In this document: positions 24,178 through 55,590 of the stretch, piece by piece
Position numbering within the stretch: position 1 is the first letter of the stretch
Layout of the letters: each line of letters begins with the position of its first letter
From: an uncultured Planctomycetales bacterium
GTDB taxonomy: Bacteria > Omnitrophota > Gorgyraeia > Zapsychrales > JANLHA01
Assembly (NCBI GenBank): GCA_964489065.1
Contig: CAZAXH010000004.1
Coordinates: 15,181-79,180, forward strand
Direction of reading: 5' to 3'
Length of the DNA: 64,000 nucleotides
The notes under the pieces: model-generated
Databases searched by the model: none
The model's input: the letters and a program-made list of their open reading frames with translations, nothing else
What the model was told of the DNA's origin: nothing
Translations under genes and position numbers: made by a program

Positions 24178-24344
24178 ATCCACCTCCTGTCCTGAACGTT
24201 TATAGAAACGCCCTTTATCCATTCCCTTAGACAACAGGAGGTGCAAAAATGTTGCATAAAATTTTTAAAATAAGGAAACCGAAAGGCGCCGGGAGTATGA
24301 CTCTTTTACCACCTAGGCGAACAAATTGACGGTACAAAATTAAT

Positions 24345-24402
24345 CAAAGGTATAAACCCCAGAGCAAACTCGGGATTCCATTAACCGCAACAAGCTGCGG
24401 AG
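24345..24402 (+). repeat. Intergenic repeat element, copy A (twin-hairpin core only)
   Basis: caaaggtataaaccccagagcaaactcgggattccattaaccgcaacaagctgcggag. It shares the core with the copies at 33011 and 35348. Confidence 0.7.
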
Positions 24403-31295: not shown

Positions 31296-31979
31296 AGTCC
31301 CCTCCTTTTCCCCTGCACTATGATTTCCAATCTTTAGTCTCTCTGATCGCAAAAACCTTACACTCCAAGGCCTGCGGCATCCCCCAGGCGGGTATTGCAA
31401 AAAAATCCGGCGGTCGAAACCTACCGGCCGTTTTCCAGCCGTCTCATGATTATTTTCGAAAAATAACCCGCCCCATATTGCCCCCACATGATCAAAGTCT
31501 CTAAAAAAATTATCCGGGATAGGAATATTTACGGATGACTGTTTCAGCCAAACTGCGATAAAACTCGACAAACCCACGGGGGGATCCGGCCTCGGTAGGT
31601 TTTATGCAGCGGGGTCGTCAGCAGGATCAGATTAACCCGTCGGTCCTCGCAATAGACGCAATCTTGAACAAATAATATATTTGTAAAGACGACAGTCCTT
31701 GAACTTCCCCGCCCTGATAAAAATGGATGTCGATCGTCCTGTTCAGGTATTTTTCTTCCAGCAAATTCTTGGCCCCCTCGCGAAAATGCCCCCAAAAACA
31801 GAAATCCGAAACCCGAAGAGTGCCAAGCGCAAGTTTATACAATAGATGGAAAAAGCCTCATTCGCGGCCGGCGGCACACGAAGAAAGCCCCCCAAGACAC
31901 AACAGGAGCCGGCTATCAGCACAAACCCTTTCTTTAAAAAATCAACGTCAACGTGTTGTTGAAAAAAAAGGCGTATATG

Positions 31980-33008
31980 TCAGATCCGACCAATTTTATC
32001 CGCAATAAACGTTCCCGAAAAGCCGAGAGAATCCTCCCACACCCCGAAAATCACCTCTTTGGATTTATCCAGCCGTCCCCTGACGTGAATGCGGACATGC
32101 TTATCCGAAAAAAAGGCATAACTGAATACGCCCGTCCGCTTATCAAAGGCTTCCATCTTCCCGGGGGAAAACACCAAACCGCTGGCCAGTTCCCCGCCAA
32201 GGATACGGCCTGTTTCATCCGTCTCGGCATGCACCTCCAAGGGGATATTCAGCAAAAAATATCTCCCCCGCCAGGTTCCTTGGAAATCAGTTCGAGAATA
32301 TTGTATCCCTTTTCTTTCCAACGCCGGGAAAGAAGAATAGACCATCGTGACCTCCCGGGAATACGCCAAGTCGTCGGGCGTGATCATCAACCGACCAAGC
32401 GGCAGACGTCCGCCGGACAAAGAACGTATCTGGCGTTCATAAGGGACCCAATTCAATTCCCCGAGGCTGACAAAATCAGTCAAGCGGAGTCCCCCGCCCT
32501 GTTCCACAGCCTTGTAAATCAGTTCCGAACAGTAAATCGCAGAATCATCCCATTGATACTGCCTATCATAAGGATGGCCGGCATAACGACCAGCTTCCCG
32601 GATAATACGGGGAATATACCGGCGGTGCTCGGGTTTCAACCTGACAATGGTCATGCGCGCGCCAACGCCCCGAGCCACCCACGCGTTAAGCGGCGTCCAT
32701 GTCACCGGGTCAATAGCTTCCAAAACAAACCATTGTCCGGATTTCTTTACGATGATTCCGCAATGAGAATAGGCACTTTGTGTCACGGCCGCGATCATCT
32801 CGGTCAGAGGCCCGGGTAAGTGTTGAAAAATCAAATCCCCTTCCCTGATATCCATATTATCCGTGTATCGGATCATTTTGGCTTTTGTGAGCGTCAAGGC
32901 GTACGAGCGCGGTGCCTGGTATAAAATATTTATCATTCCCAAGACAAGCGTTCCGAGCAGGATGCGCTTTCTAATGACGACTCTGCTGTGAAAAGAATGT
33001 GGTGTCAT
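31980..33008 (-). CDS. YiiX/YaeF-like permuted papain-fold protein (DUF830) with an about 170-aa C-terminal extension
   Basis: DIREGDLIFQHLPGPLTEMIAAVTQSAYSHCGIIV and a later CSELIYKAVEQ match the YiiX family. The ORF-track N-terminal 17 codons fall inside the repeat element and are probably not coding. Confidence 0.5.
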   Translation of the reverse strand: MTPHSFHSRVVIRKRILLGTLVLGMINILYQAPRSYALTLTKAKMIRYTDNMDIREGDLIFQHLPGPLTEMIAAVTQSAYSHCGIIVKKSGQWFVLEAIDPVTWTPLNAWVARGVGARMTIVRLKPEHRRYIPRIIREAGRYAGHPYDRQYQWDDSAIYCSELIYKAVEQGGGLRLTDFVSLGELNWVPYERQIRSLSGGRLPLGRLMITPDDLAYSREVTMVYSSFPALERKGIQYSRTDFQGTWRGRYFLLNIPLEVHAETDETGRILGGELASGLVFSPGKMEAFDKRTGVFSYAFFSDKHVRIHVRGRLDKSKEVIFGVWEDSLGFSGTFIADKIGRI

Positions 33009-33010
33009 AA

Positions 33011-33135
33011 TCAAGGTGTGAACCCCAGAGCAAGCTCTGGACTCAATTAACCGCAGCAAGCTGCGGGGTGTTCAACCAATATTCTTCGACTCGTTCGCTT
33101 GGCTCACTCGCGCTGAAGGATCAATTCGCATTTTT
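33011..33135 (+). repeat. Intergenic repeat element, copy B (full length, about 125 nt)
   Basis: tcaaggtgtgaaccccagagcaagctctggactcaattaaccgcagcaagctgcgggg...ggctcactcgcgctgaaggatcaattcgcattt. Two 7-bp-stem hairpins (CCAGAGC-AA-GCTCTGG and CCGCAGC-AA-GCTGCGG). Confidence 0.75.
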
Positions 33136-33216
33136 AATTTACACGCCCTTGGGTCGTGCAAATTAAATACTCATTGAATAAAACATTAACCATTCAATTA
33201 TACAAACAAAAAAATT

Positions 33217-33687
33217 TCACGCCGTCAAAGAGGCTAACCATTTCATCAAAAGGACGGACAAAGTATCCTGCTCTTTTTTAGAAAGAGGATCCATGAATCC
33301 ATGCATTTTCTGAATGTATTGCCCCCAAAGGCTATCCAATAAATCTTCAGCTTTCTTCGTCACCTTAACCACATTGACTCGCCGGTCTCCGGCACAGGCT
33401 GAACGGCTCACAAGGCCCTCCTGTTCAAGTTTATCAATTAACTTGGTCATATTAGAAGGAGTCACAATAAGATGCTTGCTGACTTCCACCTGGCTTAGTC
33501 CGGCCTTGCCGCCATGATACCGGATAGCCACCAAGATATTCAACTTCCCGGGAGTAAGCTGATAGGGTCTAAGAAACGCCGTTAATTCATTATGACAAAT
33601 ATTAAAAATCAGCGCCAAACTGTACAACGCTCTTTCTTGGCTAGGGGTCTCTTTTTCTATAATGCCGTAGCGGCTTAAATCGCTCAT
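33217..33687 (-). CDS. MarR-family transcriptional regulator
   Basis: wHTH with the typical layout (LTPGKLNILVAIRYHGG...SQVEVSKHLIVTPSNMTKLIDKLEQEGLVSR..DRRV). Confidence 0.85.
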   Translation of the reverse strand: MSDLSRYGIIEKETPSQERALYSLALIFNICHNELTAFLRPYQLTPGKLNILVAIRYHGGKAGLSQVEVSKHLIVTPSNMTKLIDKLEQEGLVSRSACAGDRRVNVVKVTKKAEDLLDSLWGQYIQKMHGFMDPLSKKEQDTLSVLLMKWLASLTA

Positions 33688-33764
33688 AAAAATCTCCTTA
33701 GGCTACTTAAAGTTTACCATTCAATTATCAATATGGCAACAAGTAAAATTTTATTTCCTGCTTC

Positions 33765-35015
33765 TTAAGGCTCCTGCTCCCCGCAGGGACCGGGAGTTTC
33801 CCCCTGGAATATCCTGTCACAAGCCAGCTTAAACCGGGTCCACAGTTCGTCAGCCTGTTCGGGAGGAACAGCCCCGATCATTTTCCATTTCTTTTGAATT
33901 TCTTTGACCTCTTCCCTCACCCTGACAAGATCCCGCAAAGAATACAAACTTTCCACTTCCTGGCAAAGCTGTTCTTTTTCCCTCAAATGTGCCAGCCGTT
34001 CCTCGTCACGTGCTTTAAAATACGCGTGCCGGCGTTCAAAAAACCGATCATGCGCGGCCTTAAAACGCATCCAAACCTGATCGCTATCCTGCTTGGGAAC
34101 CGGACCGATGTTCTTCCATTCCTCCTGCAGTTGTTTTAACTCTTCGCCGGCCGCTTTCCAATCTTCAGAGGCAGACAAGACTTCTGAACGTTCGCACAAA
34201 ACTTCCTTTCTCTTCAGATTCTCCAGCCTTTGCTGTTCTCGTTCCGCATAATAGGAATCCCTGCGTTCAAAAAACGTATCGCTGGCCGTTTTAAATCTCT
34301 GCCAAACATATTCTGTTTTTTCCCGGGGAACCGGGCCGATCAATTTCCACTCCTCCATTAAATGTTTCAGCGCCTCTCCCGCTTGTTTCCAGTCCGAGGA
34401 TTGGCTTAATTCTTCCGATTTACGGCACAAGTCCAATTTTTTCTGATAATTATCTTCTTTCTGCCGGTCCAATTCCGCAAAAAACAAACGCCTGTTCTCA
34501 AAAAACTGATCACAAACCGCCCGGAAACGATCCCACTGCGCCCGGGATTGATGCTCCGGGACAGGGCCAGTCAGCTTAAACTGGGCCTGCAATTTCTTGA
34601 CCTCTTCCGTCGCCACTTTCCAATCCGAAGGATGCAACAACTCCTCGACCCGGGCACATAACCTCTCCTGTTCTTCTAAATGGACATTCAGCTCAGCATC
34701 CAGGACTTCTTTCATAGCTATCAGCCGGCCCATTAAATCATCAAAATTGCCCAAGGCATCGGATTCGACGATGAAATCAAGCATGCGGTTAATTTTATCC
34801 ACCAAACCAGGCCGGTCATGGCCTTGCTCAAACTGCGCCTGCAGCTCACCCTGATACTGTTCCAACTTTTCAAACCGCAACGCATAATAGGCCAACACCT
34901 CTTCCGGGCTTTTTCCATCCAGCCGCCCGATCTGACGGCCTTTAAAATATTGGCAATCCTTCTGCCACACCTGCCCCTCATGATTCACATAACCCCATTG
35001 TTCCGGAAAAGACAT
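33765..35015 (-). CDS. DUF349 repeat protein
   Basis: Six or more tandem repeats of about 60 aa with a conserved W..(I/T)GPVP......W.RF pattern. Confidence 0.7.
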   Translation of the reverse strand: MSFPEQWGYVNHEGQVWQKDCQYFKGRQIGRLDGKSPEEVLAYYALRFEKLEQYQGELQAQFEQGHDRPGLVDKINRMLDFIVESDALGNFDDLMGRLIAMKEVLDAELNVHLEEQERLCARVEELLHPSDWKVATEEVKKLQAQFKLTGPVPEHQSRAQWDRFRAVCDQFFENRRLFFAELDRQKEDNYQKKLDLCRKSEELSQSSDWKQAGEALKHLMEEWKLIGPVPREKTEYVWQRFKTASDTFFERRDSYYAEREQQRLENLKRKEVLCERSEVLSASEDWKAAGEELKQLQEEWKNIGPVPKQDSDQVWMRFKAAHDRFFERRHAYFKARDEERLAHLREKEQLCQEVESLYSLRDLVRVREEVKEIQKKWKMIGAVPPEQADELWTRFKLACDRIFQGETPGPCGEQEP

Positions 35016-35054
35016 GGCCTCTCTCCGTTATATGTAAATATAAATTTCCGATTC

Positions 35055-35330
35055 TTAAAGACCCTGGCCCTCCGCGTCCAGTGTCCCGCGAGAACTTTTT
35101 ATCAACGCGATTTTAGACGACCGGGACAAAGCTTTGATTTGGGATTCCCGCTTCAAAGCCAGCCCCCGGGAAGGGAATTCCTCCGTATATAATAATTTGC
35201 GCACGCCATAAATCCTTGTATAGCGGGCTCCCCGGCCTTGGTCGTGCTCAGCAAGGCGTCTGGCCAAATTATTGGTGATACCGGTATAAAAAGTCCCTTT
35301 CCTCGTTTCCAAAATGTAAGCATACCACAT
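35055..35330 (-). CDS. GIY-YIG nuclease superfamily protein (UPF0213-like)
   Basis: MWYAYILETRKGTFYTGITNNLARRLAEH (GIY...YTG...R...H). Confidence 0.8.
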   Translation of the reverse strand: MWYAYILETRKGTFYTGITNNLARRLAEHDQGRGARYTRIYGVRKLLYTEEFPSRGLALKRESQIKALSRSSKIALIKSSRGTLDAEGQGL

Positions 35331-35347
35331 ATTATTATTATATCAAA

Positions 35348-35445
35348 TCAAAGGTATGTACCCCAGAGCAAGCTCTGAACCTCAATGAACCGCAGCCACT
35401 TCGACCCGCTGGGCTCACTCGCCTGAAGGATCAATTCGCATTTCC
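35348..35445 (+). repeat. Intergenic repeat element, copy C
   Basis: caaaggtatgtaccccagagcaagctctgaacctcaatgaaccgcagcc...gggctcactcgcctgaaggatcaattcgcattt. Confidence 0.75.
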
Positions 35446-35644
35446 AGTTTGGGGTGAAGACGGGGACAGTATAAAAATATCAACCAGGCATTCTCCCCCC
35501 TATGGTCCCCCTTCTTTCCCCGTATCTGTGGCATACTTGAACCCCAGCCGTGTTGGGGGACAAAGAATTAATAGGGGATTCTCAATCGTCATCATTTTTG
35601 CTAGAATGTTAATAATTATAAACTCTCTATGGCAAAAAAAACTT

Positions 35645-36205
35645 ATGATGAAAAAAGCTTTGGTTATTTTAGCAGACGGCTTTGAAGACATCGAGGCCAT
35701 AACGCCCATAGATCTTCTCATGCGGGCCGGCACCCAAGTCACCGTGGCGGGGTTAACCTCCACTCACGTCAAAGCAGCGAAGTCAGGGCTGACGATCATT
35801 GTGCCCACAAGACTGTCGGAAGCGCAGGACACTTTTGACGCCCTGATTCTTCCGGGCGGAATGCCTGGAGCGGAAAACCTGGCCAACTCGTCAGAAGTTG
35901 TGACGCGCGTCCGTCTGATGAATCAACAAAAAAAAATAATCGCGGCTATATGCGCCGCCCCAGCGCTGGTTTTAACCAAAGCCGGCGTTCTGGAAGGGAA
36001 AAACGCGACCTGTTTCCCGGGCATGGAAAACCTCTTTCCCAAAACGACAACATTCGTGGCCTCCCCCGTAGTCCAGGACGGCAACATCATCACCAGCCGC
36101 GGGGCGGGAACAGCCTTCAGTTTCGGGATAACCATTGTCGGGGCTTTGCTAGGGAAGGGGCCCCGTGAAAAAATTGAACAGACCACGGTCTTTAAGGCTT
36201 CTTAA
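35645..36205 (+). CDS. DJ-1/PfpI (ThiJ) family protein
   Basis: ALVILADGFEDIEAITPIDLL...AAICAAPALVLTKAGVLEGKNATCFPG, with the conserved nucleophile-elbow Cys. Start reassigned to MMKKALVIL. Confidence 0.85.
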   Translation: MMKKALVILADGFEDIEAITPIDLLMRAGTQVTVAGLTSTHVKAAKSGLTIIVPTRLSEAQDTFDALILPGGMPGAENLANSSEVVTRVRLMNQQKKIIAAICAAPALVLTKAGVLEGKNATCFPGMENLFPKTTTFVASPVVQDGNIITSRGAGTAFSFGITIVGALLGKGPREKIEQTTVFKAS

Positions 36206-36422
36206 GGATAATCCCGGGGCGAGACCACTGGTTTTCAAGTTTATTTTTTTGCGCAACGAAATTATATATAATAAACTTTAAAATATGCTAAAATTTTCTA
36301 AACATATCAGCAGCGGGACGGCCAGGAACAAATGCCCCGTCCCGGGAACAGAAAATATCCGCACATAGGATATAAAAAAATCATTTTACGACAGAACCCT
36401 TAAGCACGGACAGGAGGCCCCC

Positions 36423-37577
36423 TTGAGAGCATTCATTATCGCAATTTTTATCGTCTGCATGACACAACCGTTATCGGCTGACACCATCCTTTTAAAAAAC
36501 GGAAAAACCCTGGAAGGACCGATTATCGAAAAGACCAAACGCCACATAAAAATGCAAACCAAAAACGGCGTTATCAAAGTTCCTTTCACCATGATGGAGG
36601 AAGCAACGGCGGAAGAGGTCAAGAAAATCCCGGAAAAAATAATGATAAAAGACGAACCCCCTCTTCTTTATAAAGGGAAAAAGATTACCAAAGAAGATAT
36701 TGATGTGGAGAAAATACTGCAGCCGGTTTTCGCCAAGTTCAAAGACATGTCTTCCTTTCAATGCAACGGGACCGGGGTTTCCAACAGCATTCGGGATAAT
36801 GTCATGGATACAACGCAGACATATATAACCATGAAATTCCAACGGCCCAATTACTTCCTGATTGTCCTAGACAACACCCTCAGCAAAGGGCAAAAAGAAA
36901 TCCTGGCCGCCTGGAATAACGGGGCGACCCCCCTGTCTTACAGCAGTACCGCCAAAACCTACAACTACGCGTCCAACGACACTATGGCCTTGATGGATAT
37001 CGGATATCTTAAAATTCTCCACCAACTGTTTTCCGGATGCGAAGCGGAATGCCCGCTTCTTCAAGATCTGACGTATCTGGGAAACACGGATTTAAACGGA
37101 GAATCCTGCTACCTTTTGTCCCGGACCATGCCAATCGGCTACTATGTTCTTTGGGTATCCAAAAAACGGAATATTGTGATCAGGCTTGATTACACTCTCT
37201 TCGGATATCCGGATGAATTTTACCGGCAGCCAACGACCGACGCCGAACTCGAAACAATCCTGCAGGCCATGGAGATGGAACCCACAGAAGAAAATTTAAA
37301 AAAAGCCAGGCAGGTCATTCTCAATATCCAGCCTCCCCCTGAGGACGAAGAGGACGAGGATGATGCGGCCAAAAAGAAAGAAAAGAAAAAGAAGAAAGCC
37401 CCTCCGCCCCCTCCGCCACCACCGAGAGGGCCTAAATACCAAACAAGCATTTACGCTGAATTAACCCTGGATAATTTTGAATTTGACTGGGAAATTGATC
37501 CGGGAGAATTCCGATTCGGAATCCCAGAGGGGACAAAGTTTGTGCCTGCAGAGGACTTTAAGAAACAATTTGAATAA
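36423..37577 (+). CDS. Secreted protein of an uncharacterised family (paralog 1) with an acidic, Lys-rich and Pro8 low-complexity insert
   Basis: TTG start with an AGGAGG RBS. Signal peptide. Conserved blocks shared with the 39545 gene: LYKGxKIxKEE, MxSFQCNGxG, YITxKFQRPxY, CEGECP(L/F)L, ENCYL, WVS, TARQVI. Confidence 0.6.
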   Translation: MRAFIIAIFIVCMTQPLSADTILLKNGKTLEGPIIEKTKRHIKMQTKNGVIKVPFTMMEEATAEEVKKIPEKIMIKDEPPLLYKGKKITKEDIDVEKILQPVFAKFKDMSSFQCNGTGVSNSIRDNVMDTTQTYITMKFQRPNYFLIVLDNTLSKGQKEILAAWNNGATPLSYSSTAKTYNYASNDTMALMDIGYLKILHQLFSGCEAECPLLQDLTYLGNTDLNGESCYLLSRTMPIGYYVLWVSKKRNIVIRLDYTLFGYPDEFYRQPTTDAELETILQAMEMEPTEENLKKARQVILNIQPPPEDEEDEDDAAKKKEKKKKKAPPPPPPPPRGPKYQTSIYAELTLDNFEFDWEIDPGEFRFGIPEGTKFVPAEDFKKQFE

Positions 37578-37627
37578 ACGACCGGGCGTCCTCTCCGCTT
37601 CTGCCCAAAAATAAGCTCCAATGTTAA

Positions 37628-37653
37628 CCGGGATGATGGTATCGTCATCCCGG
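37628..37653. terminator. Hairpin between convergent genes (CCGGGATGA-N8-TCATCCCGG), nested inside an 11-bp inverted repeat (AAACGACCGGG / CCCGGTCGTTT)
   Basis: Seen in sequence. Weak T-run (tcgtttt) downstream on the + strand. Confidence 0.4.
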
Positions 37654-37683
37654 TCGTTTTAAATAGCCCCCAAAATTCCCGTA

Positions 37684-38406
37684 TCATCTGCGGCGAAGCT
37701 TCGACAGGAAACGCAGAATCTCCATATACAGCCAGATTAAAGTGACCATAAGGCCAAAAGCTCCGTACCATTCCATATATCTGGGAACACCCATGCGGGA
37801 CCCCTGCTCAATAAAATCGAAATCTAGCACCAAATTTAAAGCGGCAATAATAACAACAATAAGGCTGAACCCGATTCCAATCGGGCCGCTGTCGTATATG
37901 AGCGGCATGCGAACCTGAAAGAAACCCAAGACCAAAGTCAAAAGATAATATAACGCAATCCCCCCGGTGGCAGCCACGATCCCCATCCGGAATTGATCCG
38001 TAACCGTTATCATGCCGGATCTATAAACAATTAATAACGCGCATAATGTCGCCCCCGTGAGGCCGACGGCCTGCTTGACAATCCCCGGATACGATTGTTC
38101 AAAAATAACAGAAACGGTCCCCAAGACAACCCCCTCCAAAAGAGCGTATATCGGCGCCGTGACCGGAGACCACTCTTTCTTAAAAACAGTGACCAGGGCG
38201 GTCAAAAATCCCCCCACTAAAGCCGGCAATAAAAAAGGACTGGCTCCCCCGGGGTTGCTCCAAGCCCAAGTCGCTGTCAGCATCACCAGGAAAAGCAGGA
38301 TGAAACTTTTGTTCGTCGTCCCCTGGATCGACATGACATGACCCGAATCATACGACCTGACCTCGCTAAAAGTGTCGTTTGTTAACACAGGATTTCCTGA
38401 ACGCAT
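37684..38406 (-). CDS. 7-TM membrane protein, Bax-inhibitor-1/YccA-like (tentative)
   Basis: About 240 aa. Seven hydrophobic helices. A charged C-terminus (LSKLRRR) as in the BI-1 family. Confidence 0.45.
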   Translation of the reverse strand: MRSGNPVLTNDTFSEVRSYDSGHVMSIQGTTNKSFILLFLVMLTATWAWSNPGGASPFLLPALVGGFLTALVTVFKKEWSPVTAPIYALLEGVVLGTVSVIFEQSYPGIVKQAVGLTGATLCALLIVYRSGMITVTDQFRMGIVAATGGIALYYLLTLVLGFFQVRMPLIYDSGPIGIGFSLIVVIIAALNLVLDFDFIEQGSRMGVPRYMEWYGAFGLMVTLIWLYMEILRFLSKLRRR

Positions 38407-39544: not shown

Positions 39545-40627
39545 ATGCAAAAACGTTCAGCCATACTTATGCTTATTTTATTATCGGCCAATATGGCATT
39601 TGCCGAATCTGTGGTGCTTAAAAGCGGGATGATCGTCCAAGGGGAGGTCATCGAGAAAACCCAAGAGTATATCAAGGTCGATACCGGAAGCAACGTTCTA
39701 AAAATCCCCTTCAAACGGATGGATGAAGAATTCGCCGCCGCCTACCAGGCCCTTCCGGAAAAAATCGCCGACCCCCAGGATGTCCTTCTGTACAAAGGCC
39801 AAAAGATTTCAAAAGAAGAGGTTCAACCCGAGGCCATTTTAAAAGCCGTGCTGGCCCGTTATAAGGAAATGACGTCGTTCCAATGCAACGGGAGCGGGAT
39901 AACGAGTACCAGTTACGGAGAAGCTCTTGTGAACGGGCAGAAGTACATTACCGTTAAATTTCAGCGCCCTCATTATTATTTGACCATAGATAAAACATCC
40001 CTGCCCAAACGCAAGAAAAAATTCGGAGAAGAAACACGGGCGGCATGGTCCAATGGGGAAGGCCATTATTACTATAAAAGCACCGCCCAAAAATATTTTC
40101 AGCTCCCGACCGACACGATGGCGCGCATGGGCATGGCCTATATAAATATCCTGTATAATTTTTTTACCGTCTGCGAAGGCGAATGCCCCTTCCTTAAAAC
40201 ATTCTCATACTTCGGGAATGCCAGTTTCGGCGGAGAAAACTGCTATCTATTCAAACAGGATGTCAGTTCAGGATCATATATGATTTGGGTCTCCCAAGCG
40301 AGCAACCTGATCGTAAAAATCGATTATGAATTCGAAGGGCAGCCGGATGAATTCTTTGCGCGGGGCATGAATATAGAAGAAATCAACAGCATCTTCCCTC
40401 CTCTAGAGATGGAACTCACGGCCGAAAATCAAAAGACCGCCCGGCAGGTGATCAAAGATATCCATGCTATTCGATGGGGGCAGACAACCAAATCCTATGT
40501 CGAAGTCACGCTTGAAAATATCATCACAAACGAGGAGCTCAAGCCGGAAAGTTTTCAATATCCTTATCCCCAGGACACGGCTTTTGAATCAGAAGAGGAT
40601 TTCAAAAAACGGTTTGAAAAAAAGTAG
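39545..40627 (+). CDS. Secreted protein of an uncharacterised family (paralog 2)
   Basis: Signal peptide. Conserved blocks shared with the 36423 gene (see that entry). AAGGAG RBS. Confidence 0.6.
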   Translation: MQKRSAILMLILLSANMAFAESVVLKSGMIVQGEVIEKTQEYIKVDTGSNVLKIPFKRMDEEFAAAYQALPEKIADPQDVLLYKGQKISKEEVQPEAILKAVLARYKEMTSFQCNGSGITSTSYGEALVNGQKYITVKFQRPHYYLTIDKTSLPKRKKKFGEETRAAWSNGEGHYYYKSTAQKYFQLPTDTMARMGMAYINILYNFFTVCEGECPFLKTFSYFGNASFGGENCYLFKQDVSSGSYMIWVSQASNLIVKIDYEFEGQPDEFFARGMNIEEINSIFPPLEMELTAENQKTARQVIKDIHAIRWGQTTKSYVEVTLENIITNEELKPESFQYPYPQDTAFESEEDFKKRFEKK

Positions 40628-49701: not shown

Positions 49702-52700
49702 TTATGGATGCCTGGGAACGGTCACCGTGGCTGCGGCGGTCGCACTGTTCCCGGAGACGTCCGTGGCAGAGTAAAGAAGCGTATAAATCCGGCCATTCGA
49801 CGACCCTTGCCGCTCAGCGCGCAAATAAATCTGGCCGTTCGCATCAACCCGAATGTCGGCTGTCGTATCCCCATCCGGCACCCCGGCATCATAATTAGGA
49901 TCATAGGTGTTGATTTGATCGCCTTCGTTCATAGTAATAGACGTTAACCTCACCAGAGGACCGGGATCGCAGGTATCCGCGGCCGTAACGACTGGCGTTA
50001 TCTTGACCATTTTATGATTTGGCGGCCACAAAACAGCGAGGTTCACGCTCACACTGATCTGTGGCGGGGTGGTGTCCCGGACAGTCACCTGCCCTGTTTG
50101 GGAATCGGCTGCGCCCATGGGATCTTCCACCGTCAAAGAAAAAGAATAAACACCCAAAGGAAGCGTGACGGTTTGGGTGACACCGGACAGATTCCCCCAA
50201 GGCCCGGACCAGAGATACGTTAAAGGATCTCCGTCCTCATCCGTAGACGCTGAACCATCCAGTACAACCGCACAGCCCTGCGGCCCGGTGCATTCCACGA
50301 CCCAATCCGAACCGGGCTGCGATTGAGGGGCATGGTTCAAAACCTCGGTCGTCCCGGCAGCCACTGCAATCTGCCGCCCCCGGAATGTCAGGACAACCGT
50401 CCTCGTCCCGTTGTTAATCAATGTTAATGTATCCGGATAAAAAATAATCTTATCCCCGGTTTCCAGCACGGCCGCGGCCACATCCCCGGAAAGCGCGTTC
50501 AATTCCACGTTCACAGGACCGCTTACGATATCCGCGCCGATACTGCCGCAGGTCACGACAACTTCGTCTCCGGGAGATAAAAATATATTCCCCGCCTCCG
50601 AACAGGCCGTCACTTCCGCCTGTACAGCGCCGCCGCTTGCATCGACCTTGATTCTGACCCCTGCTAAAGGATCAAAATCATCAACGATGGTCAGAACCTG
50701 ATCCCCCCGGCTCAGGATCTCGCCGTACGTGGCAGGATCGCTATGGTCATTAAAACTATTGGAATACCCGGTCACGTCACCGTCAACGGCGTCGGACAGC
50801 CCGTCGCCGTCATAATCAATCCGGTCAAGACTTCCGGTCACGGCATTGATTAACGAAACATTGGCGACATGATGCAGGGCCGTGTCATACTTGGACAGTT
50901 TCCGTTCCAGGTCAGCCTGGCTGTCCTCGTCGAAATTGGGCAGAGTCTCATCATAGAGAAAATGATTATATAAGCCCCAATTGTTCGGGTAACTGTGTAC
51001 TTTGTAGGACCACAACGACCAGCTCCAGCCTTCGGCATTGAAACGGCTCAAATAATACTCCCAAGCGTCCTTGATTCCGAACGCGTTAAATTCACCGACT
51101 AAAACAGGGACGTCATAATCTTCCTGGTAAACCTGTGAATCCGACACCTTCTGGTCAACAAACGCCTTATGATAGTCTATAACGTCAGTAAATGTCAGAT
51201 TAGGAATAAGTTCAGAATATTCTTCTGGGTTATACGCAGGGCAGGTCTCACCCAAGACAGGAAGCAGAAGTTCCCCGGTTGCCTCATTTCTATTTTCCCA
51301 ACAATAATAATGAAACTGGTACATCACGTTTTCCCAACTCATATCTTCCGGCTTGGGCAAAGAATCCCAATCCCAGGCGCCTTCCATGACGATGAGATGA
51401 TCCTCATCACCCACGGTATCGCGGATTTCCTGATAGATATCATCATAAAGGGCGTGCAGCAAAGCGAGACCGCCCACATAATCTTCAAATCCGGTCGGCT
51501 CATTTAAAAGATCATAGCCAAGCACTGCCGGATTATCCTTATAATGATCAGCGATCTTATTCCACAGTTCTACCGTCCGGTCCCGGTAAGCGCTCACCGC
51601 CGGATTAAATAACTGATGGAAATATCCGGGTTCCGGCGGTTCCACCGATTCCCGCCCGGTATGAAACTCCCGGCTCTGGCTTCCCGGAGCGCCGTGCAGA
51701 TCCAGAAGCACATAAATCCCGCGGTCCGCGCAGGCGTTCACGATTTCGTCAATCTTACTGAAATCAAAATTACCGCCGCAGGCCCAATTACCGCTTTCAT
51801 CCAGGTCGCAGATATTCCGGTAATAGAGCGGCAGTCGGACGTAATTGAACCCCATCCGCAGAATATTATCAAAGTCGCTTTCCTGAATATATGCGTCCTG
51901 ATAAACATTCAAAATATTTTGGGCCTCGGCACCTAAATATTCCCGAATGGTCCAGTCGTCAAAATACTTGCCTCCCTCCGGCTCATCCAGATGTTTTTCA
52001 AACTCCGGGCCCTTGCCCAACATCCAGGATTCAAGGAGCAGGTAATTGCCCAAGTTTACCCCTTTGAGTTGCACCACATCCCCGGCGCCATTCTGTTCCC
52101 GGAGATGAAGCCCCGCCGCCCGCACAAAGCCTTGCGGGTCATACAACAACGCCGGGCTCCACGCGCCGCTGTCAACCTCACCCACCGCGCGCACGCGGTA
52201 CCATTTACCGATGTCGGAACCCGACAAAGTTAACGTGGTCTGCGGCCCGCTGTAAATCTGCGTCCAGCCGCCGTCACGGCTGGCCCCTTCTTCCACCACA
52301 TAGGAAACCGCCAGCGGCTGGGCCGTCCATTCTACATACCCTTCCTGCAAGCGGGCATATTTAATCAGCGCCGGTTTAGCGAAATACTGAACCGCCTCGC
52401 TCCAATCAGACTCCACCAAGACAACCCCGTCGATTTCATTGGGGATGCCCCAGCGTACCCGCAGCCAGGAACTCTCCAGTTCCTGAAGCGCGACGCTCGT
52501 TTCCGTGCCGGAATAAATCGTTGTCCACGGCCCCTCTGACCCCGCAGCGCTCTGCTGCAGCGTGTAATGCGCACCGTCTAGATATTTATTCCAGGAAGCC
52601 ACCCCTTCCGGAAGCGCGGCCTGATTGATCGTCACCTCCGGCAACGCCGTGGCCCGGATGTCATCAAAGTAATACGTCCCCGGCCAAAAAATCTGAAGCT

Positions 52701-55590
52701 TAACTTCATATAAATCCTGTAAATTAAAGATCTTCCCCTCAGAAAGGCTCTTCTCTTGTATGGCGCTGAAAGGAATGTCCAGACGGGTCCATTGCCCATA
52801 TTCAGCACTTTTTTCCGTCCAAATTGATAAAGGAGAATTTCTGTAATCCCCGTTATCCAAAAGCTGCACGTTAACATTATTGCTCATCCCATTCTCGGCC
52901 AACTGATACACCCAAAATGTCAGTTTGTCAAACTGCGGCAGGACAAGATGTGCCGGGTTTAGGTTGACATGACGGTAATCATCCCCATTATCAGGTCTAT
53001 AACAGTAGTCGCCAGAAGCATCACAAGCACGTTCCTGAGATATCAACCACACCCCCGCCCATTCACCGGATTTACCGGGATTAGTGACGAGTTTCCAAGA
53101 AGAGGTGCCTTCATAAACTGGTTCTCCCGAACCAGAATATCCCGCAGTGCCAAACCAGGCACCACCCGGATATCCCCACGGCAACGGGCCATCAAGCACA
53201 TTCTGCTCAAAAGCCTGATAAGGGCGATCACCCAAAACAACCCGCATATCATCAAAATAATACGTTCCGGCGTGATAGTTGACGAAATTTATTTTCACGA
53301 CATGATTCAAGTTAAAATCATCCGGCAGTTGTGAGAATAAAACCGTCAACTCTGACCATTGGCCGATTTCAACTTTTTTAGTGGTCCAAACTTCAAAACC
53401 CGGGTGACTTATCCCATCATACAAACTGTCATCAAAAAACCGCACCGCAACGTTATTCGGGCCCGTCGCCGCTAAAGGATAAATCCAAAAACTCAATCGG
53501 TCATTATGCTCTGGGTCAAAATCTATATAGCCTGCCGGGCTCTGGGGATACACGGTTATCCCTCCCCAAGTGGAACCTACTTGCTCACAAGAAGAATTTC
53601 CAGAGCGGACAATGTTTGTAGACACGCCAGCGGTTGCGCCATTAATCCCCTGACAATACATGGCTGGAGTGCCATTGCCCGCCTCAAAATCCTGGTACAC
53701 GCGTCCCCGGGAAACCCCGTTGTACAAGGCGAGAACCTCCTCGGAGGAAATCACCCGGTTATAAATATAAACCTCATCCACAAACCCCTTCCAGTGCCGG
53801 TTCGCTTCCGTGGAATACCCGTTGCCGACAGCCACATGGTTCAAATCCAGGGTTATCGGCCGGTAAGAACCGGCGGTGCCGAGGTTGGGATGCACTTGAA
53901 CATCCGCGGCCGGATGGAAGCTTGTGAAAACCAGTTGCCCGTCCAAATACCCGTAATCGCGGGCTCCATCCCAGGCGTAAACCACATGGTACCAGCGGTT
54001 AGCCTGAAGAGAATCCGTGTAAGTTTCTTCATACACGCCCTCCGGGGCCGGGCTCACCGTGCTCAACCCCAAAGCGCCCATGGTGAACTTCCCGTCAACA
54101 CTTTCTTCAAAACGGATATTATCATCCCAACTGGCGTAATCCGTGGAGAAAGGGTTGCGCCAGTTTTCCACCGTGTCCGCTTTCATCCAGAAAGAAATCG
54201 TGCCGGCCGGTTGATACCCCAGGTCATCATTCACCAGGATAACGTCATTGCTCCCGTCAAAATGATACGCCCCCCCGAAACGGCCTTCACTAGTATAAGC
54301 CGCGCCGTTGAGAACCGCGGCATTATGCCCGTTGCCGCTTTCATCCAGTACAATACTGCCGTTATCATGGGAGAACGTGTACTTCAAAAGCAAACCTTCC
54401 CCTAAAGAAGGAAACGGCGGCTCGTAATCCAAATCAAGCACAGTTAGTCCCACGGGTATCCCGCCCACAGCGGCATCGATTTGTGACGCCGGGGCCAGCG
54501 TGCCATCACCATTTCCCAAATAAACAGAAACTTTTTGATCTTCCAGGTTCCCGAAAACAACATCAATCAACCCATCGCCATTAAAATCCGCCGTTGCCAT
54601 CCCGCTAGGTGTATAGACCAGATTTTCGATTTGAGAATTCAAATGAGAAACAAATTCTTGATTACCAGCATCCCACAGAAAAACCGACAAAAACCATTGT
54701 CCGGACAGTCTGGTGAATGTCACTAAGTCCGTGTAAGTATCATTATTAAAATCCCCGATACGAACTATGCCTGACCCGCCCAAATCCGTGTTAAGGCTCA
54801 ATTCCTGGCGGGTAAAAGTGTTATCGCCGTTGTTCCAAAACACCGTTACCGCCGGGTTCAAAGCGCAGGCCAGGACAAGGTCATCATCGCCGTCATGATC
54901 AAAATCGCTCGTTTGGATATTTTGCGGACGTATTTCAGTGGCTAACTTCTGATCTGATAAAAAGCCGCCGTTACCATTACCATAGAGGATAGTAATCTCC
55001 GATGAGGTCCAATTGCACACCGCGCCATCAAGGTTCCCGTCCTTGTTATAATCCCCCACGGTAACATTATTGGCCCAGCCATCGACAGCCCAGGTGGCGG
55101 AAAGAGAAAAATTCCCATTACCATCCCCCGCAAGGATCTGCACCATTCCTCCGGGATTCCAGTTTGGCACCAGAATATCCAGATGGCCGTCTTTATTAAA
55201 ATCCCCCATGGCCACACCATTGGCAACTTCATACCCCACATCATAAATGGTGCGCGGCTCAAACTCGCCATTGCCCTTCCCTTTAAGAAATCCTAACGTA
55301 TGCCCTCCCCTTCCATTAACGGCCACCAGATCCGGGATATCATCTTCATTAAAATCAGCGGCAGCGACATAATTAGGATAACTGCCCAACACCACATCAG
55401 GAATAATCCTAGTGAACGTGTTATCCTCATTGTTCACTAATACTGAACCGGTTTCAATATTTTCATTGGCCGTGATGATGTCCGCGTAAGGGCCGGCCGC
55501 GTAAGCGGGAACTCCTAACGCAAACACAGCCGCTGAAAGCACGGCCGCTACGATTGTTTTCCAGTGCTGGGGGGGCATGTGTTGGGGCAT
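49702..55590 (-). CDS. Giant secreted multidomain protein (1962 aa): FG-GAP/VCBS β-propeller repeats, LamG/ConA-like lectin domain, two jelly-roll CBM-like modules, a GH5 catalytic domain, and C-terminal Ig/cadherin-like domains
   Basis: Signal peptide. Repeated DFN(K/E/N)DGxxD FG-GAP motifs. The GH5 NEP acid/base (DLLNEPTG) and downstream nucleophile region. C-terminal β-sandwich repeats. Confidence 0.85.
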   Translation of the reverse strand: MPQHMPPQHWKTIVAAVLSAAVFALGVPAYAAGPYADIITANENIETGSVLVNNEDNTFTRIIPDVVLGSYPNYVAAADFNEDDIPDLVAVNGRGGHTLGFLKGKGNGEFEPRTIYDVGYEVANGVAMGDFNKDGHLDILVPNWNPGGMVQILAGDGNGNFSLSATWAVDGWANNVTVGDYNKDGNLDGAVCNWTSSEITILYGNGNGGFLSDQKLATEIRPQNIQTSDFDHDGDDDLVLACALNPAVTVFWNNGDNTFTRQELSLNTDLGGSGIVRIGDFNNDTYTDLVTFTRLSGQWFLSVFLWDAGNQEFVSHLNSQIENLVYTPSGMATADFNGDGLIDVVFGNLEDQKVSVYLGNGDGTLAPASQIDAAVGGIPVGLTVLDLDYEPPFPSLGEGLLLKYTFSHDNGSIVLDESGNGHNAAVLNGAAYTSEGRFGGAYHFDGSNDVILVNDDLGYQPAGTISFWMKADTVENWRNPFSTDYASWDDNIRFEESVDGKFTMGALGLSTVSPAPEGVYEETYTDSLQANRWYHVVYAWDGARDYGYLDGQLVFTSFHPAADVQVHPNLGTAGSYRPITLDLNHVAVGNGYSTEANRHWKGFVDEVYIYNRVISSEEVLALYNGVSRGRVYQDFEAGNGTPAMYCQGINGATAGVSTNIVRSGNSSCEQVGSTWGGITVYPQSPAGYIDFDPEHNDRLSFWIYPLAATGPNNVAVRFFDDSLYDGISHPGFEVWTTKKVEIGQWSELTVLFSQLPDDFNLNHVVKINFVNYHAGTYYFDDMRVVLGDRPYQAFEQNVLDGPLPWGYPGGAWFGTAGYSGSGEPVYEGTSSWKLVTNPGKSGEWAGVWLISQERACDASGDYCYRPDNGDDYRHVNLNPAHLVLPQFDKLTFWVYQLAENGMSNNVNVQLLDNGDYRNSPLSIWTEKSAEYGQWTRLDIPFSAIQEKSLSEGKIFNLQDLYEVKLQIFWPGTYYFDDIRATALPEVTINQAALPEGVASWNKYLDGAHYTLQQSAAGSEGPWTTIYSGTETSVALQELESSWLRVRWGIPNEIDGVVLVESDWSEAVQYFAKPALIKYARLQEGYVEWTAQPLAVSYVVEEGASRDGGWTQIYSGPQTTLTLSGSDIGKWYRVRAVGEVDSGAWSPALLYDPQGFVRAAGLHLREQNGAGDVVQLKGVNLGNYLLLESWMLGKGPEFEKHLDEPEGGKYFDDWTIREYLGAEAQNILNVYQDAYIQESDFDNILRMGFNYVRLPLYYRNICDLDESGNWACGGNFDFSKIDEIVNACADRGIYVLLDLHGAPGSQSREFHTGRESVEPPEPGYFHQLFNPAVSAYRDRTVELWNKIADHYKDNPAVLGYDLLNEPTGFEDYVGGLALLHALYDDIYQEIRDTVGDEDHLIVMEGAWDWDSLPKPEDMSWENVMYQFHYYCWENRNEATGELLLPVLGETCPAYNPEEYSELIPNLTFTDVIDYHKAFVDQKVSDSQVYQEDYDVPVLVGEFNAFGIKDAWEYYLSRFNAEGWSWSLWSYKVHSYPNNWGLYNHFLYDETLPNFDEDSQADLERKLSKYDTALHHVANVSLINAVTGSLDRIDYDGDGLSDAVDGDVTGYSNSFNDHSDPATYGEILSRGDQVLTIVDDFDPLAGVRIKVDASGGAVQAEVTACSEAGNIFLSPGDEVVVTCGSIGADIVSGPVNVELNALSGDVAAAVLETGDKIIFYPDTLTLINNGTRTVVLTFRGRQIAVAAGTTEVLNHAPQSQPGSDWVVECTGPQGCAVVLDGSASTDEDGDPLTYLWSGPWGNLSGVTQTVTLPLGVYSFSLTVEDPMGAADSQTGQVTVRDTTPPQISVSVNLAVLWPPNHKMVKITPVVTAADTCDPGPLVRLTSITMNEGDQINTYDPNYDAGVPDGDTTADIRVDANGQIYLRAERQGSSNGRIYTLLYSATDVSGNSATAAATVTVPRHP

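What the first reader, a model, noticed from the sequence alone, without database searches (positions are those of the whole stretch)
33011..35445. Novel twin-hairpin intergenic repeat element in at least three copies. Two copies bracket a marR-DUF349-GIY-YIG block.
A conserved core is present at 24345-24402, 33011-33135 and 35348-35445, all in the same orientation. The core is CAAAGGTRtRwACCCCAGAGCAARCTCKGRAyyCMATkAACCGCARC... It contains two short perfect hairpins, CCAGAGC-AA-GCTCTGG and CCGCAGC-AA-GCTGCGG. Copies B and C additionally share a 3' module (GGCTCACTCGCSCTGAAGGATCAATTCGCATTT). Copies B and C flank a 2.2-kb segment containing a MarR regulator, a DUF349 protein and a GIY-YIG nuclease. 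This is reminiscent of a small mobile or REP/MITE-like element, or of a recombination-generated cassette. In two cases the element sits immediately upstream of a minus-strand gene start (YiiX-like and GIY-YIG). It supplies an in-frame ATG to the YiiX ORF, so it may also carry promoter or 5'-UTR function. It could be transcribed as a small structured RNA.
Basis: seen in the sequence. Interest (0 to 1): 0.6.

Follow-up and report, generated by a model that had tools for sequence, protein, structure and literature searches.

The report
Modular mobile intergenic repeat in Omnitrophota
The three "twin-hairpin" copies belong to a previously undescribed family of small, non-coding, dispersed repeats (a head, 0-5 tandem 90-base modules and a hairpin tail) that has been inserting into intergenic DNA of one uncultured Omnitrophota lineage; it resembles other bacterial junk-like repeats, and is neither a gene cassette boundary nor a conserved RNA.

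Summary
Three same-strand copies lie in the window (0.01 expected by chance). At least 26 more loci occur in closely related Omnitrophota contigs from sludge and digester metagenomes.

The full element has three parts:
- H, a ~62-nt head with the two hairpins.
- M, a ~90-nt module present in 0-5 tandem copies.
- T, a tail that closes a ~58-nt imperfect palindrome.

In the window, B (33009-33177) is complete, A is a solo head, and C is an internally deleted remnant.

B is missing from a sister lineage about 95% identical in DNA and from an outgroup. The empty site reads GTTTTAT|G|ATG, so B is a recent insertion with no target duplication. There are no terminal inverted repeats. C is shared with the sister lineage but absent from the outgroup.

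The marR-DUF349-GIY-YIG-yiiX order is ancestral synteny, not a cassette. The yiiX ATG predates the insertion.

The twin hairpins show no covariation; only the terminal hairpin shows some. Copies are strongly orientation-biased, and the tail end abuts TTTAT in 18 of 21 junctions.

Best reading: a non-autonomous mobile repeat built like pneumococcal BOX or P. gingivalis BrickBuilt elements, possibly moved by a single-strand (HUH-type) transposase. This is a new family of a known kind and of modest interest.

The parts
24342..24402 (+). Copy A: solo head (H) only. Both hairpins are present but carry unpaired substitutions, and there is no module or tail.
   Evidence: The element is absent from the syntenic intergenic region of more distant relatives whose neighbouring 153-aa protein is 69-70% identical (L047-L050).
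33009..33177 (+). Copy B: complete H-M-T element (168-169 nt). It is a lineage-specific insertion directly upstream of the yiiX start codon (CAT at 33006-33008).
   Evidence: It is absent from L037/L032/L051 (sister lineage) and from L052 (outgroup).
33025..33040 (+). Head hairpin 1 of copy B: CCAGAGC-AA-GCTCTGG.
   Evidence: No covariation across 19 heads.
33051..33066 (+). Head hairpin 2 of copy B: CCGCAGC-AA-GCTGCGG.
33071..33158 (+). Module (M) of copy B. It contains the stem (A)TTCTTC...GAAGGAT and the conserved blocks GGCTCACTCGC and GGATCAATTCGCAT. The same unit occurs in 1-5 tandem copies at other loci.
33121..33177 (+). Terminal imperfect palindrome of copy B, formed by the end of the module plus the tail T: TCAATTCGCATTTTTAATTTACACG...CGTGCAAATTAAATACTCATTGA.
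   Evidence: The inner 10-bp stem shows compensatory changes across copies.
33178..33182 (+). Flanking pentanucleotide ATAAA (TTTAT on the gene-sense strand). It is target DNA, not part of the element.
   Evidence: It is retained in the empty alleles as GTTTTAT. The same pentanucleotide abuts the tail in 18 of 21 junctions.
35346..35450 (+). Copy C: decayed element. The head has hairpin 2 half deleted and is fused to a partial module. There is no terminal hairpin or tail.
   Evidence: It is present in the sister lineage (L037, L032, L051) and absent from the outgroup L052.

Best explanation
The three copies are members of a lineage-restricted family of non-coding, non-autonomous interspersed repeats in a Candidatus Omnitrophota genome.

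A full element reads, on the window + strand: H (about 62 nt; two similar 6-7-bp GC hairpins), then M (about 90 nt; 0-5 head-to-tail copies), then T (about 24 nt; with the end of the last module it forms a ~58-nt imperfect palindrome).

Shown:
- The family is dispersed in intergenic DNA.
- It varies in module number.
- It decays by truncation and internal deletion.
- At least one copy (B) was inserted after two lineages about 95% identical in DNA split. The insertion lies precisely next to TTTAT, with no target-site duplication and no terminal inverted repeats.
- Copies are strongly biased to one orientation. The reverse complement of the element as written lies on the gene-sense, G-rich strand.

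Inferred:
- Copies are moved in trans by an enzyme encoded elsewhere in the genome.
- The combination of hairpins near both ends, insertion 3' of a fixed pentanucleotide, no duplication, no inverted ends and strand bias fits a single-strand, HUH-type 'peel-and-paste' mechanism (IS200/IS605-like) better than a classical DDE cut-and-paste MITE. I give this sub-hypothesis roughly 0.35.
- Module number changes by slippage or unequal recombination.
- Effects on neighbouring genes are side effects of insertion. For example, B adds a ~170-nt structured leader between the yiiX promoter-like TATAAT and its ATG.
For: Family and architecture:
- Searches give 26 heads and 64 modules, always in the order H then M(n) then T.
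- One search gives about 26 distinct loci.
- All true hits come from contigs of GC 0.43-0.54 from sludge and digester metagenomes and one Omnitrophota MAG. Proteins of the window also hit Omnitrophota.

Mobility:
- B is absent from L037/L032/L051, which are 94-95% identical to the window in DNA and 99.9% identical to each other.
- B is also absent from the outgroup L052.
- C is shared with the sister lineage but not with the outgroup.
- A is absent from L047-L050.
- About 69 kb of outgroup DNA holds no copy, against 3 in the 64-kb window.

Insertion junction:
- Filled and empty alleles align with equal length and no duplication.
- No terminal inverted repeats were found.
- TTTAT flanks the tail end in 18 of 21 junctions, preceded by T-runs of variable length.

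Orientation:
- 13 of 15 elements lying between co-directional genes are antisense as written.
- The written strand is the C-rich strand in most loci.
- The skew of the window is negative whatever the gene strand.

Neutral decay:
- The head hairpins have 0 compensatory changes, and 13% of positions are unpaired, the same as in shuffles.
- Copies at different loci are about 80% identical, and modules within one array about 91%.

Non-coding and unrecognised:
- 0-2-nt indels inside the only recurrent small ORF frame.
- No Rfam, plasmid or phage match.
Against: - Only one filled/empty pair (B) gives nucleotide-level resolution. A 1-nt ambiguity (G versus T) remains at the head junction.
- No transposase was seen in the 40 of 49 window ORFs scanned. 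No recurrent protein family lies next to the copies.
- No two copies at different loci are more than 94% identical, so recent bursts are not documented.
- The hairpins at the two ends are unlike each other, whereas IS200/IS605 ends carry similar palindromes.
- Orientation bias relative to genes and relative to replication cannot be separated.
- The terminal hairpin and one module stem pair do show compensatory changes. Some selection on pairing, for transposition or for an RNA role, is therefore possible.
Confidence: 0.78

Rival explanations
1. It is a family of functional structured RNAs or cis-regulatory leaders (5'-UTR or 3'-UTR elements, or small RNAs). Its hairpins would be maintained for an RNA role, and it would be spread by duplication because it benefits the host.
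For: - Both strands fold somewhat better than shuffles: z = -2.3 and -2.7.
- On the gene-sense strand both head hairpins have CUUG loops.
- Copies are mostly co-oriented with flanking genes, so they would be co-transcribed.
- B and C end 0 and 15 nt from start codons.
- The terminal hairpin has 7 compensatory positions against 2.6 +/- 1.2 in shuffles.
- One module stem pair switches U-A to G-C in 6 modules.
Against: - The twin hairpins have zero compensatory changes, and their substitutions simply break pairs.
- The RNAalifold covariation term is unfavourable, +1.29.
- No Rfam match.
- Flanking genes are functionally unrelated.
- Copies are truncated or internally deleted (A, C, L015 8956).
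- B is absent from genomes 95% identical in DNA, and the whole family is absent from relatives about 77-80% identical in DNA.
Confidence: 0.1
2. It is a classical MITE: a deletion derivative of a DDE-transposase IS, moved by cut-and-paste through terminal inverted repeats and creating a fixed-length target-site duplication.
For: - Small size, non-coding, intergenic, dispersed, polymorphic.
- The ends carry weakly similar motifs: ATCAAAG at the head and, reverse-complemented, TCAATGA at the tail.
- In a few copies the same pentanucleotide (ATAAA or GTCAA) flanks both ends.
Against: - No terminal inverted repeat was detected in three complete copies.
- The B filled/empty comparison shows no duplication.
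- In about 10 copies the two flanking pentanucleotides differ in the same way, ATCAA at the head against ATAAA at the tail. That is not what a duplication of a variable target gives.
- The strong orientation bias is not expected for symmetric-ended elements.
Confidence: 0.08
3. Copies B and C are recombination sites that delimit a mobile marR-DUF349-GIY-YIG cassette (integron-like or repeat-mediated).
For: B and C are direct repeats 2.3 kb apart and flank three genes. A Logan contig (L044) switches to another genomic context inside copy B.
Against: - The same gene order GIY-YIG-DUF349-MarR-YiiX-peptidase occurs in the sister lineage with C but without B, and in the outgroup with neither.
- The L044 switch is equally explained by an assembly chimera at a repeat.
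- No integrase is present in the ORFs scanned.
- Family members are scattered over many contigs rather than arrayed.
Confidence: 0.02

Closest known systems
BOX elements of Streptococcus pneumoniae (boxA - boxB(n) - boxC)
   Same: A composite intergenic repeat. It has a 5' module, a variable number of tandem internal modules whose count differs between loci and strains, and a 3' module. It is predicted to fold, is dispersed, and is restricted to a narrow host range. For BOX no clear target duplication could be identified (PMC3049150). The H-M(n)-T layout here is the same idea.
   Different: There is no reason to expect sequence relatedness, given the different phylum and module sizes of 62/90/24 nt against 59/45/50 nt. 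BOX ends are reported to resemble the inverted repeats of ISSpn2, whereas here no terminal inverted repeats were found. Here the orientation bias is strong and a fixed pentanucleotide flanks one end.
BrickBuilt MITE of Porphyromonas gingivalis (leader - 23-nt minisatellite - tail)
   Same: Leader, spacer-less tandem repeats and tail. It is always intergenic, present in a few dozen copies, and of limited host range (PMC4596501).
   Different: BrickBuilt has small inverted-repeat ends and a 23-nt unit. Here the unit is about 90 nt, the ends are not inverted repeats, and the last unit forms a long palindrome with the tail.
IS200/IS605-family ends and their non-autonomous derivatives (single-strand 'peel and paste' transposition by Y1 HUH TnpA)
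   Same: Secondary structures near both ends, no inverted terminal repeats, and integration next to a specific short sequence on one strand. These elements excise precisely, and their orientation is tied to the lagging-strand template (PMC5027513, PMC3201880). Here: hairpins at both ends, TTTAT immediately 5' of the tail end on the G-rich strand, no duplication, and orientation bias.
   Different: The two end hairpins are dissimilar here. The internal tandem modules have no counterpart. No TnpA or autonomous copy was found in the DNA available. Guide/cleavage-site pairing could not be evaluated.
REP/BIME elements of Enterobacteria and Pseudomonas
   Same: Intergenic, hairpin-forming, often just downstream of genes, and mosaic in composition.
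   Different: From my own knowledge, REPs are 20-40-nt palindromic units, usually paired in inverted orientation and linked to RAYT genes. Here the units are 60-90 nt, always direct, with a distinct head and tail.

Membership tests
MITE (classical, DDE-mobilised) | Terminal inverted repeats | tested here: not met
   An inverted-repeat search over three complete copies with flanks found only internal hairpins and no end-to-end pair.
MITE (classical, DDE-mobilised) | Target-site duplication of fixed length | tested here: not met
   In the B filled versus empty alleles, GTTTTAT|element|ATG aligns with GTTTTAT G ATG at equal length and with no duplicated bases. This is one pair only.
MITE (classical, DDE-mobilised) | Small, non-coding, multi-copy, with presence/absence polymorphism | tested here: met
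MITE (classical, DDE-mobilised) | Cognate autonomous IS with the same ends in the host | not testable with these tools
   Only about 64 kb of this genome and about 300 kb of related contigs are held. No transposase lies near the copies.
BOX-type composite repeat | 5' module + variable tandem internal modules + 3' module | tested here: met
   H-M(0-5)-T at about 26 loci. This is a resemblance of architecture only.
BOX-type composite repeat | Sequence homology to boxA/boxB/boxC | not tested
Homology is not expected across phyla.
IS200/IS605-derived element (HUH, single-strand) | Secondary structures (imperfect palindromes) near both ends, recognised on one strand | tested here: inconclusive
   Hairpins exist at both ends, but they are dissimilar in sequence. 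Only the tail-end hairpin shows compensatory changes.
IS200/IS605-derived element (HUH, single-strand) | Insertion 3' of a specific tetra- or pentanucleotide, without duplication | tested here: inconclusive
   TTTAT abuts the tail end in 18 of 21 junctions and is present in the empty allele. Only one empty site is available.
IS200/IS605-derived element (HUH, single-strand) | Orientation bias consistent with the lagging-strand template | tested here: inconclusive
   The strand carrying TTTAT + element is the G-rich strand in most loci. However, replication direction is inferred from skew only and is confounded with gene direction.
IS200/IS605-derived element (HUH, single-strand) | Cognate Y1 TnpA in the genome | not testable with these tools
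   The whole genome is not available. None was seen in the ORFs scanned.
REP/BIME | 20-40-nt palindromic units, typically in inverted pairs | tested here: not met
   Units are 60-90 nt and always in direct order.
Integron cassette array (attC) | Contiguous array of cassettes, each ending in an attC site, next to an integrase; cassettes mobile | tested here: not met
   Copies are scattered over more than 20 contigs. The bracketed genes are ancestral synteny. No integrase was seen in the ORFs scanned.
Described structured RNA family | Match to an Rfam model, and covariation supporting the helices | tested here: not met
   No Rfam hit at gathering scores, and only meaningless hairpin hits at E of about 1. 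The twin hairpins show no covariation.
CRISPR array | Short repeats separated by unique spacers | tested here: not met
   Modules abut each other with no spacers.

The most novel reading that the evidence does not exclude
The element is a non-autonomous single-strand (HUH-type, or otherwise working without inverted ends or target duplication) transposon that is still active in an Omnitrophota lineage. It would insert 3' of TTTAT on the lagging-strand template. It would also carry an internal ~90-nt unit that can be amplified in tandem, an architecture not described for IS200/IS605 derivatives. The twin GC hairpins and the long terminal palindrome would be the two recognition ends.
Probability: 0.3. 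Interest if true: 0.5.

Novelty: new member of a known kind. Interest (0 to 1): 0.3.

Why it matters
Small interspersed repeats are well known in cultured bacteria but have not been described for Omnitrophota, a phylum known almost only from metagenomes.

Recognising this family has three practical uses:
- It explains why assemblies of these genomes break. Six contigs end inside module arrays.
- It warns against annotating the ORFs and start codons that the repeat creates.
- It gives strain-level markers, both presence/absence of copies and module number.

If the insertion without duplication and the strand-specific orientation are confirmed, the family would also point to an uncharacterised transposition system in this phylum. 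It does not reveal a new kind of biology as it stands.

Tried and rejected
- Rfam at gathering and permissive thresholds: nothing meaningful.
- tRNA/tmRNA scan: none.
- Viral contig scans. The module pattern gave 0 hits. The 10 hits of the hairpin-1 17-mer belong to one related phage group and share only those 17-18 nt.
- Plasmid and phage BLAST: no match.
- Chance matches. The Acidobacteriota hit L001 and the high-GC loci L019, L027, L033 and L043 match only the search pattern.
- Coding potential. A 19-27-aa ORF with a Shine-Dalgarno-like AAGGGAG appears on the gene-sense strand of modules. However, 0-2-nt indels between copies destroy the frame, so this was rejected.
- Terminator function. 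No T-run follows the hairpins on either strand.
- Terminator targeting. A few copies abut terminator-like hairpins, but the flanks fold no better than control windows ending in TTTAT: -7.3 against -6.6 kcal/mol.
- IHF-site-like motifs were judged by eye only; none fits the consensus.
- Linked transposase. All-against-all comparison of flanking ORFs found only response regulators and orthologues. The ORF after a solo head in L002 is a UPF0047 gene.
- MarR binding to the hairpins was considered and dropped, because B is a lineage-specific insertion next to an ancestral marR.
- More filled/empty pairs could not be obtained. The three sister-lineage contigs are 99.9% identical to each other, and no other locus overlaps the window lineage.
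Full report
**1. The observation**

- The 20-nt core around hairpin 1 occurs three times on the + strand with at most 2 mismatches. Shuffles of the window give 0.01 such matches.
- Hairpin 2 is intact in A and B only.
- B and C share the 3' module.
- Profile scans of the whole window find exactly these three copies and nothing else.
- There are no tRNA genes and no Rfam families in the window.

**2. What the element looks like when more copies are seen**

A pattern scan of species-representative genomes hit one true genome. This is a Candidatus Omnitrophota MAG from a sludge digester (L002), with two copies in 8 kb. The scan also gave one chance match inside a coding sequence.

In L002 the twin-hairpin head is followed by five head-to-tail copies of a ~90-nt unit.

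A metagenome scan with a module pattern returned 31 loci.
- 27 are genuine. They have GC 0.43-0.54 and come mostly from one activated-sludge assembly at about 7x coverage.
- Four high-GC loci match only the search pattern.

Profile searches over these loci found 26 heads and 64 modules. They are always arranged H, then M repeated 0-5 times, then a short tail T. After removing the same locus seen in several metagenomes, about 26 distinct insertions remain.

The last module and the tail together form a long imperfect palindrome with a 10-bp core, TAGTTTACAC/GTGTAAACTA.

By this standard:
- Copy B (33009-33177) is a complete H-M-T element.
- Copy A (24342-24402) is a solo head.
- Copy C (35346-35450) is a remnant with an internal deletion and no tail.

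Similar internal deletions occur elsewhere, for example at L015 8956. Six contigs end inside arrays.

**3. Evidence that it moves**

Contigs L037, L032 and L051 come from three different metagenomes and are 99.9% identical to each other. They are 94-95% identical to window 31850-38305 but lack copy B. An outgroup whose YiiX is 72% identical (L052) also lacks it.

On the gene-sense strand:
- The filled allele reads ...AATGTTTTAT|TCAATGAG...CCTTGATT|ATGACACCA...
- The empty alleles read ...AATGTTTTAT G ATGATAGCC...

The reading frames downstream align codon for codon. There is therefore no target-site duplication, and the start codon of yiiX pre-exists the insertion.

Copy C is present in the sister lineage but absent from the outgroup. 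There the conserved TGATATAAT box of the GIY-YIG gene is preceded by unrelated sequence. Copy A is absent from the syntenic region of four more distant relatives. About 69 kb from those relatives contains no family member.

The family is thus restricted to a narrow clade and has inserted at different times.

The order GIY-YIG, DUF349, MarR, YiiX, peptidase is conserved in the outgroup. B and C therefore do not delimit a cassette.

**4. Ends, target and orientation**

- No terminal inverted repeats were found.
- The tail end abuts ATAAA (TTTAT on the gene-sense strand) in 18 of 21 junctions, GTCAA in two and ATAAC in one.
- The number of T residues before it varies from 2 to 7. The empty allele of B keeps GTTTTAT. 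This pentanucleotide is therefore flanking DNA and not part of the element.
- The head end is ...CCTTTGAT(T).
Their reverse complement is on the mRNA-sense strand (binomial p of about 0.007, my calculation).
- The written strand is the C-rich strand in most loci.
- In the window the skew is negative in every 2-kb bin whatever the gene strand.
- The two biases cannot be separated with these data.
- Flanks do not fold better than control sequence, so terminator targeting is not general.

**5. Structure and selection**

- Across 19 distinct heads, the 12 pairs of the two hairpins show no compensatory change. 13% of positions are unpaired, exactly as in column shuffles.
- The core of the terminal hairpin shows 7 compensatory positions at 2 pairs, against 2.6 +/- 1.2 in shuffles. 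0 of 500 shuffles reach this value. This may partly reflect two subfamilies.
- One pair of the module stem ATCCTTC/GAAGGAT switches from T-A to G-C in six modules and is broken in five.
- A consensus fold of nine complete elements on the gene-sense strand has an unfavourable covariation term.
- Copies at different loci are about 80% identical. Modules within an array are about 91% identical.

This is the pattern of copies decaying from a master sequence. Constraint, if any, falls on the terminal hairpin.

**6. Mechanism**

The points in sections 2-4 are shown. These are a dispersed, modular, non-coding repeat, at least one recent insertion, no duplication, no inverted ends, a fixed flanking pentanucleotide and an orientation bias.

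Mobilisation in trans is inferred. The features match single-strand HUH transposition, as described for IS200/IS605 (PMC5027513 and PMC3201880), better than DDE cut-and-paste.

Three points weigh against that reading. The end hairpins are dissimilar. No transposase was seen in the 40 of 49 window ORFs scanned. None recurs next to the copies. I therefore hold this sub-hypothesis at about one in three.

Module number presumably changes by slippage or unequal exchange, as proposed for boxB arrays (PMC3049150).

**7. Comparison with known elements**

The closest analogues in architecture are pneumococcal BOX elements (boxA-boxB(n)-boxC) and the BrickBuilt element of P. gingivalis (leader, minisatellite, tail). 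Nothing similar is in Rfam, PLSDB plasmids or GenBank phages. Literature searches for Omnitrophota repeats found nothing.

It is not a REP/BIME, an attC site, a CRISPR array or a known RNA. The membership table gives the tests.

**8. Verdict**

The REP/MITE-like reading is right in spirit. The cassette, ATG-donor and structured-RNA suggestions are not supported. This is a new family of a known kind, of modest interest. It has a minority chance of marking an uncharacterised strand-specific transposition system in Omnitrophota.

Noticed in passing
window 33031-33090; L044 4905-5070: A Logan contig from the same strain (L044) is 99.8% identical to window 33031-38015. Inside copy B it switches to the head of another copy and an unrelated flank. 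This is either recombination between copies or an assembly chimera at the repeat.
   Followed up: partly
L017, L020, L022, L024, L028, L042 (contig ends): Six metagenome contigs end inside module arrays. The repeat fragments assemblies of these genomes, so array lengths above five modules cannot be excluded.
   Followed up: no
window 35328-35346 (- strand): The 91-aa GIY-YIG gene has an extended -10 box, TGATATAAT, ending 6 nt before its ATG. This is a leaderless-type arrangement. It is conserved in the outgroup L052, and copy C ends exactly at this box.
   Followed up: partly
window 33197-33202 (- strand TATAAT): A TATAAT box upstream of yiiX is conserved in the window, the sister lineage and the outgroup. 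Copy B lies between it and the ATG. The yiiX mRNA of this strain would therefore carry the reverse complement of B as a ~170-nt leader.
   Followed up: partly
window 24249-24270 (- strand): The motif TTAAAA(A)TTTTATGCAACAT upstream of the 153-aa gene next to rubrerythrin is conserved in outgroup contigs L048/L049. It is a candidate promoter or operator.
   Followed up: no
window 1-64000: GC skew on the + strand is negative (-0.05 to -0.25) in every 2-kb bin, irrespective of gene strand. About 35 of 49 long ORFs are on the - strand. The window apparently lies within a single replichore.
   Followed up: no
L015 9336-9375: Here the tail end of an array abuts a canonical intrinsic terminator (AATCCCGCG...CGCGGGATT followed by T6). 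Several other copies follow GC-rich hairpins, but flank folding is not enriched overall.
   Followed up: yes
window 36423-37577 and 39545-40627: Two paralogous genes without a Pfam match share a 36-nt near-repeat (36741-36776 and 39863-39898).
   Followed up: no
L003-L012 (IMG/VR): All ten viral contigs that contain the 17-mer CCCCAGAGCAAGCTCTG belong to one related phage group. They share only those 17-18 bases with the element, so this is probably coincidence.
   Followed up: partly
window 49702-55590 (- strand): A 1962-aa ORF was not analysed.
   Followed up: no
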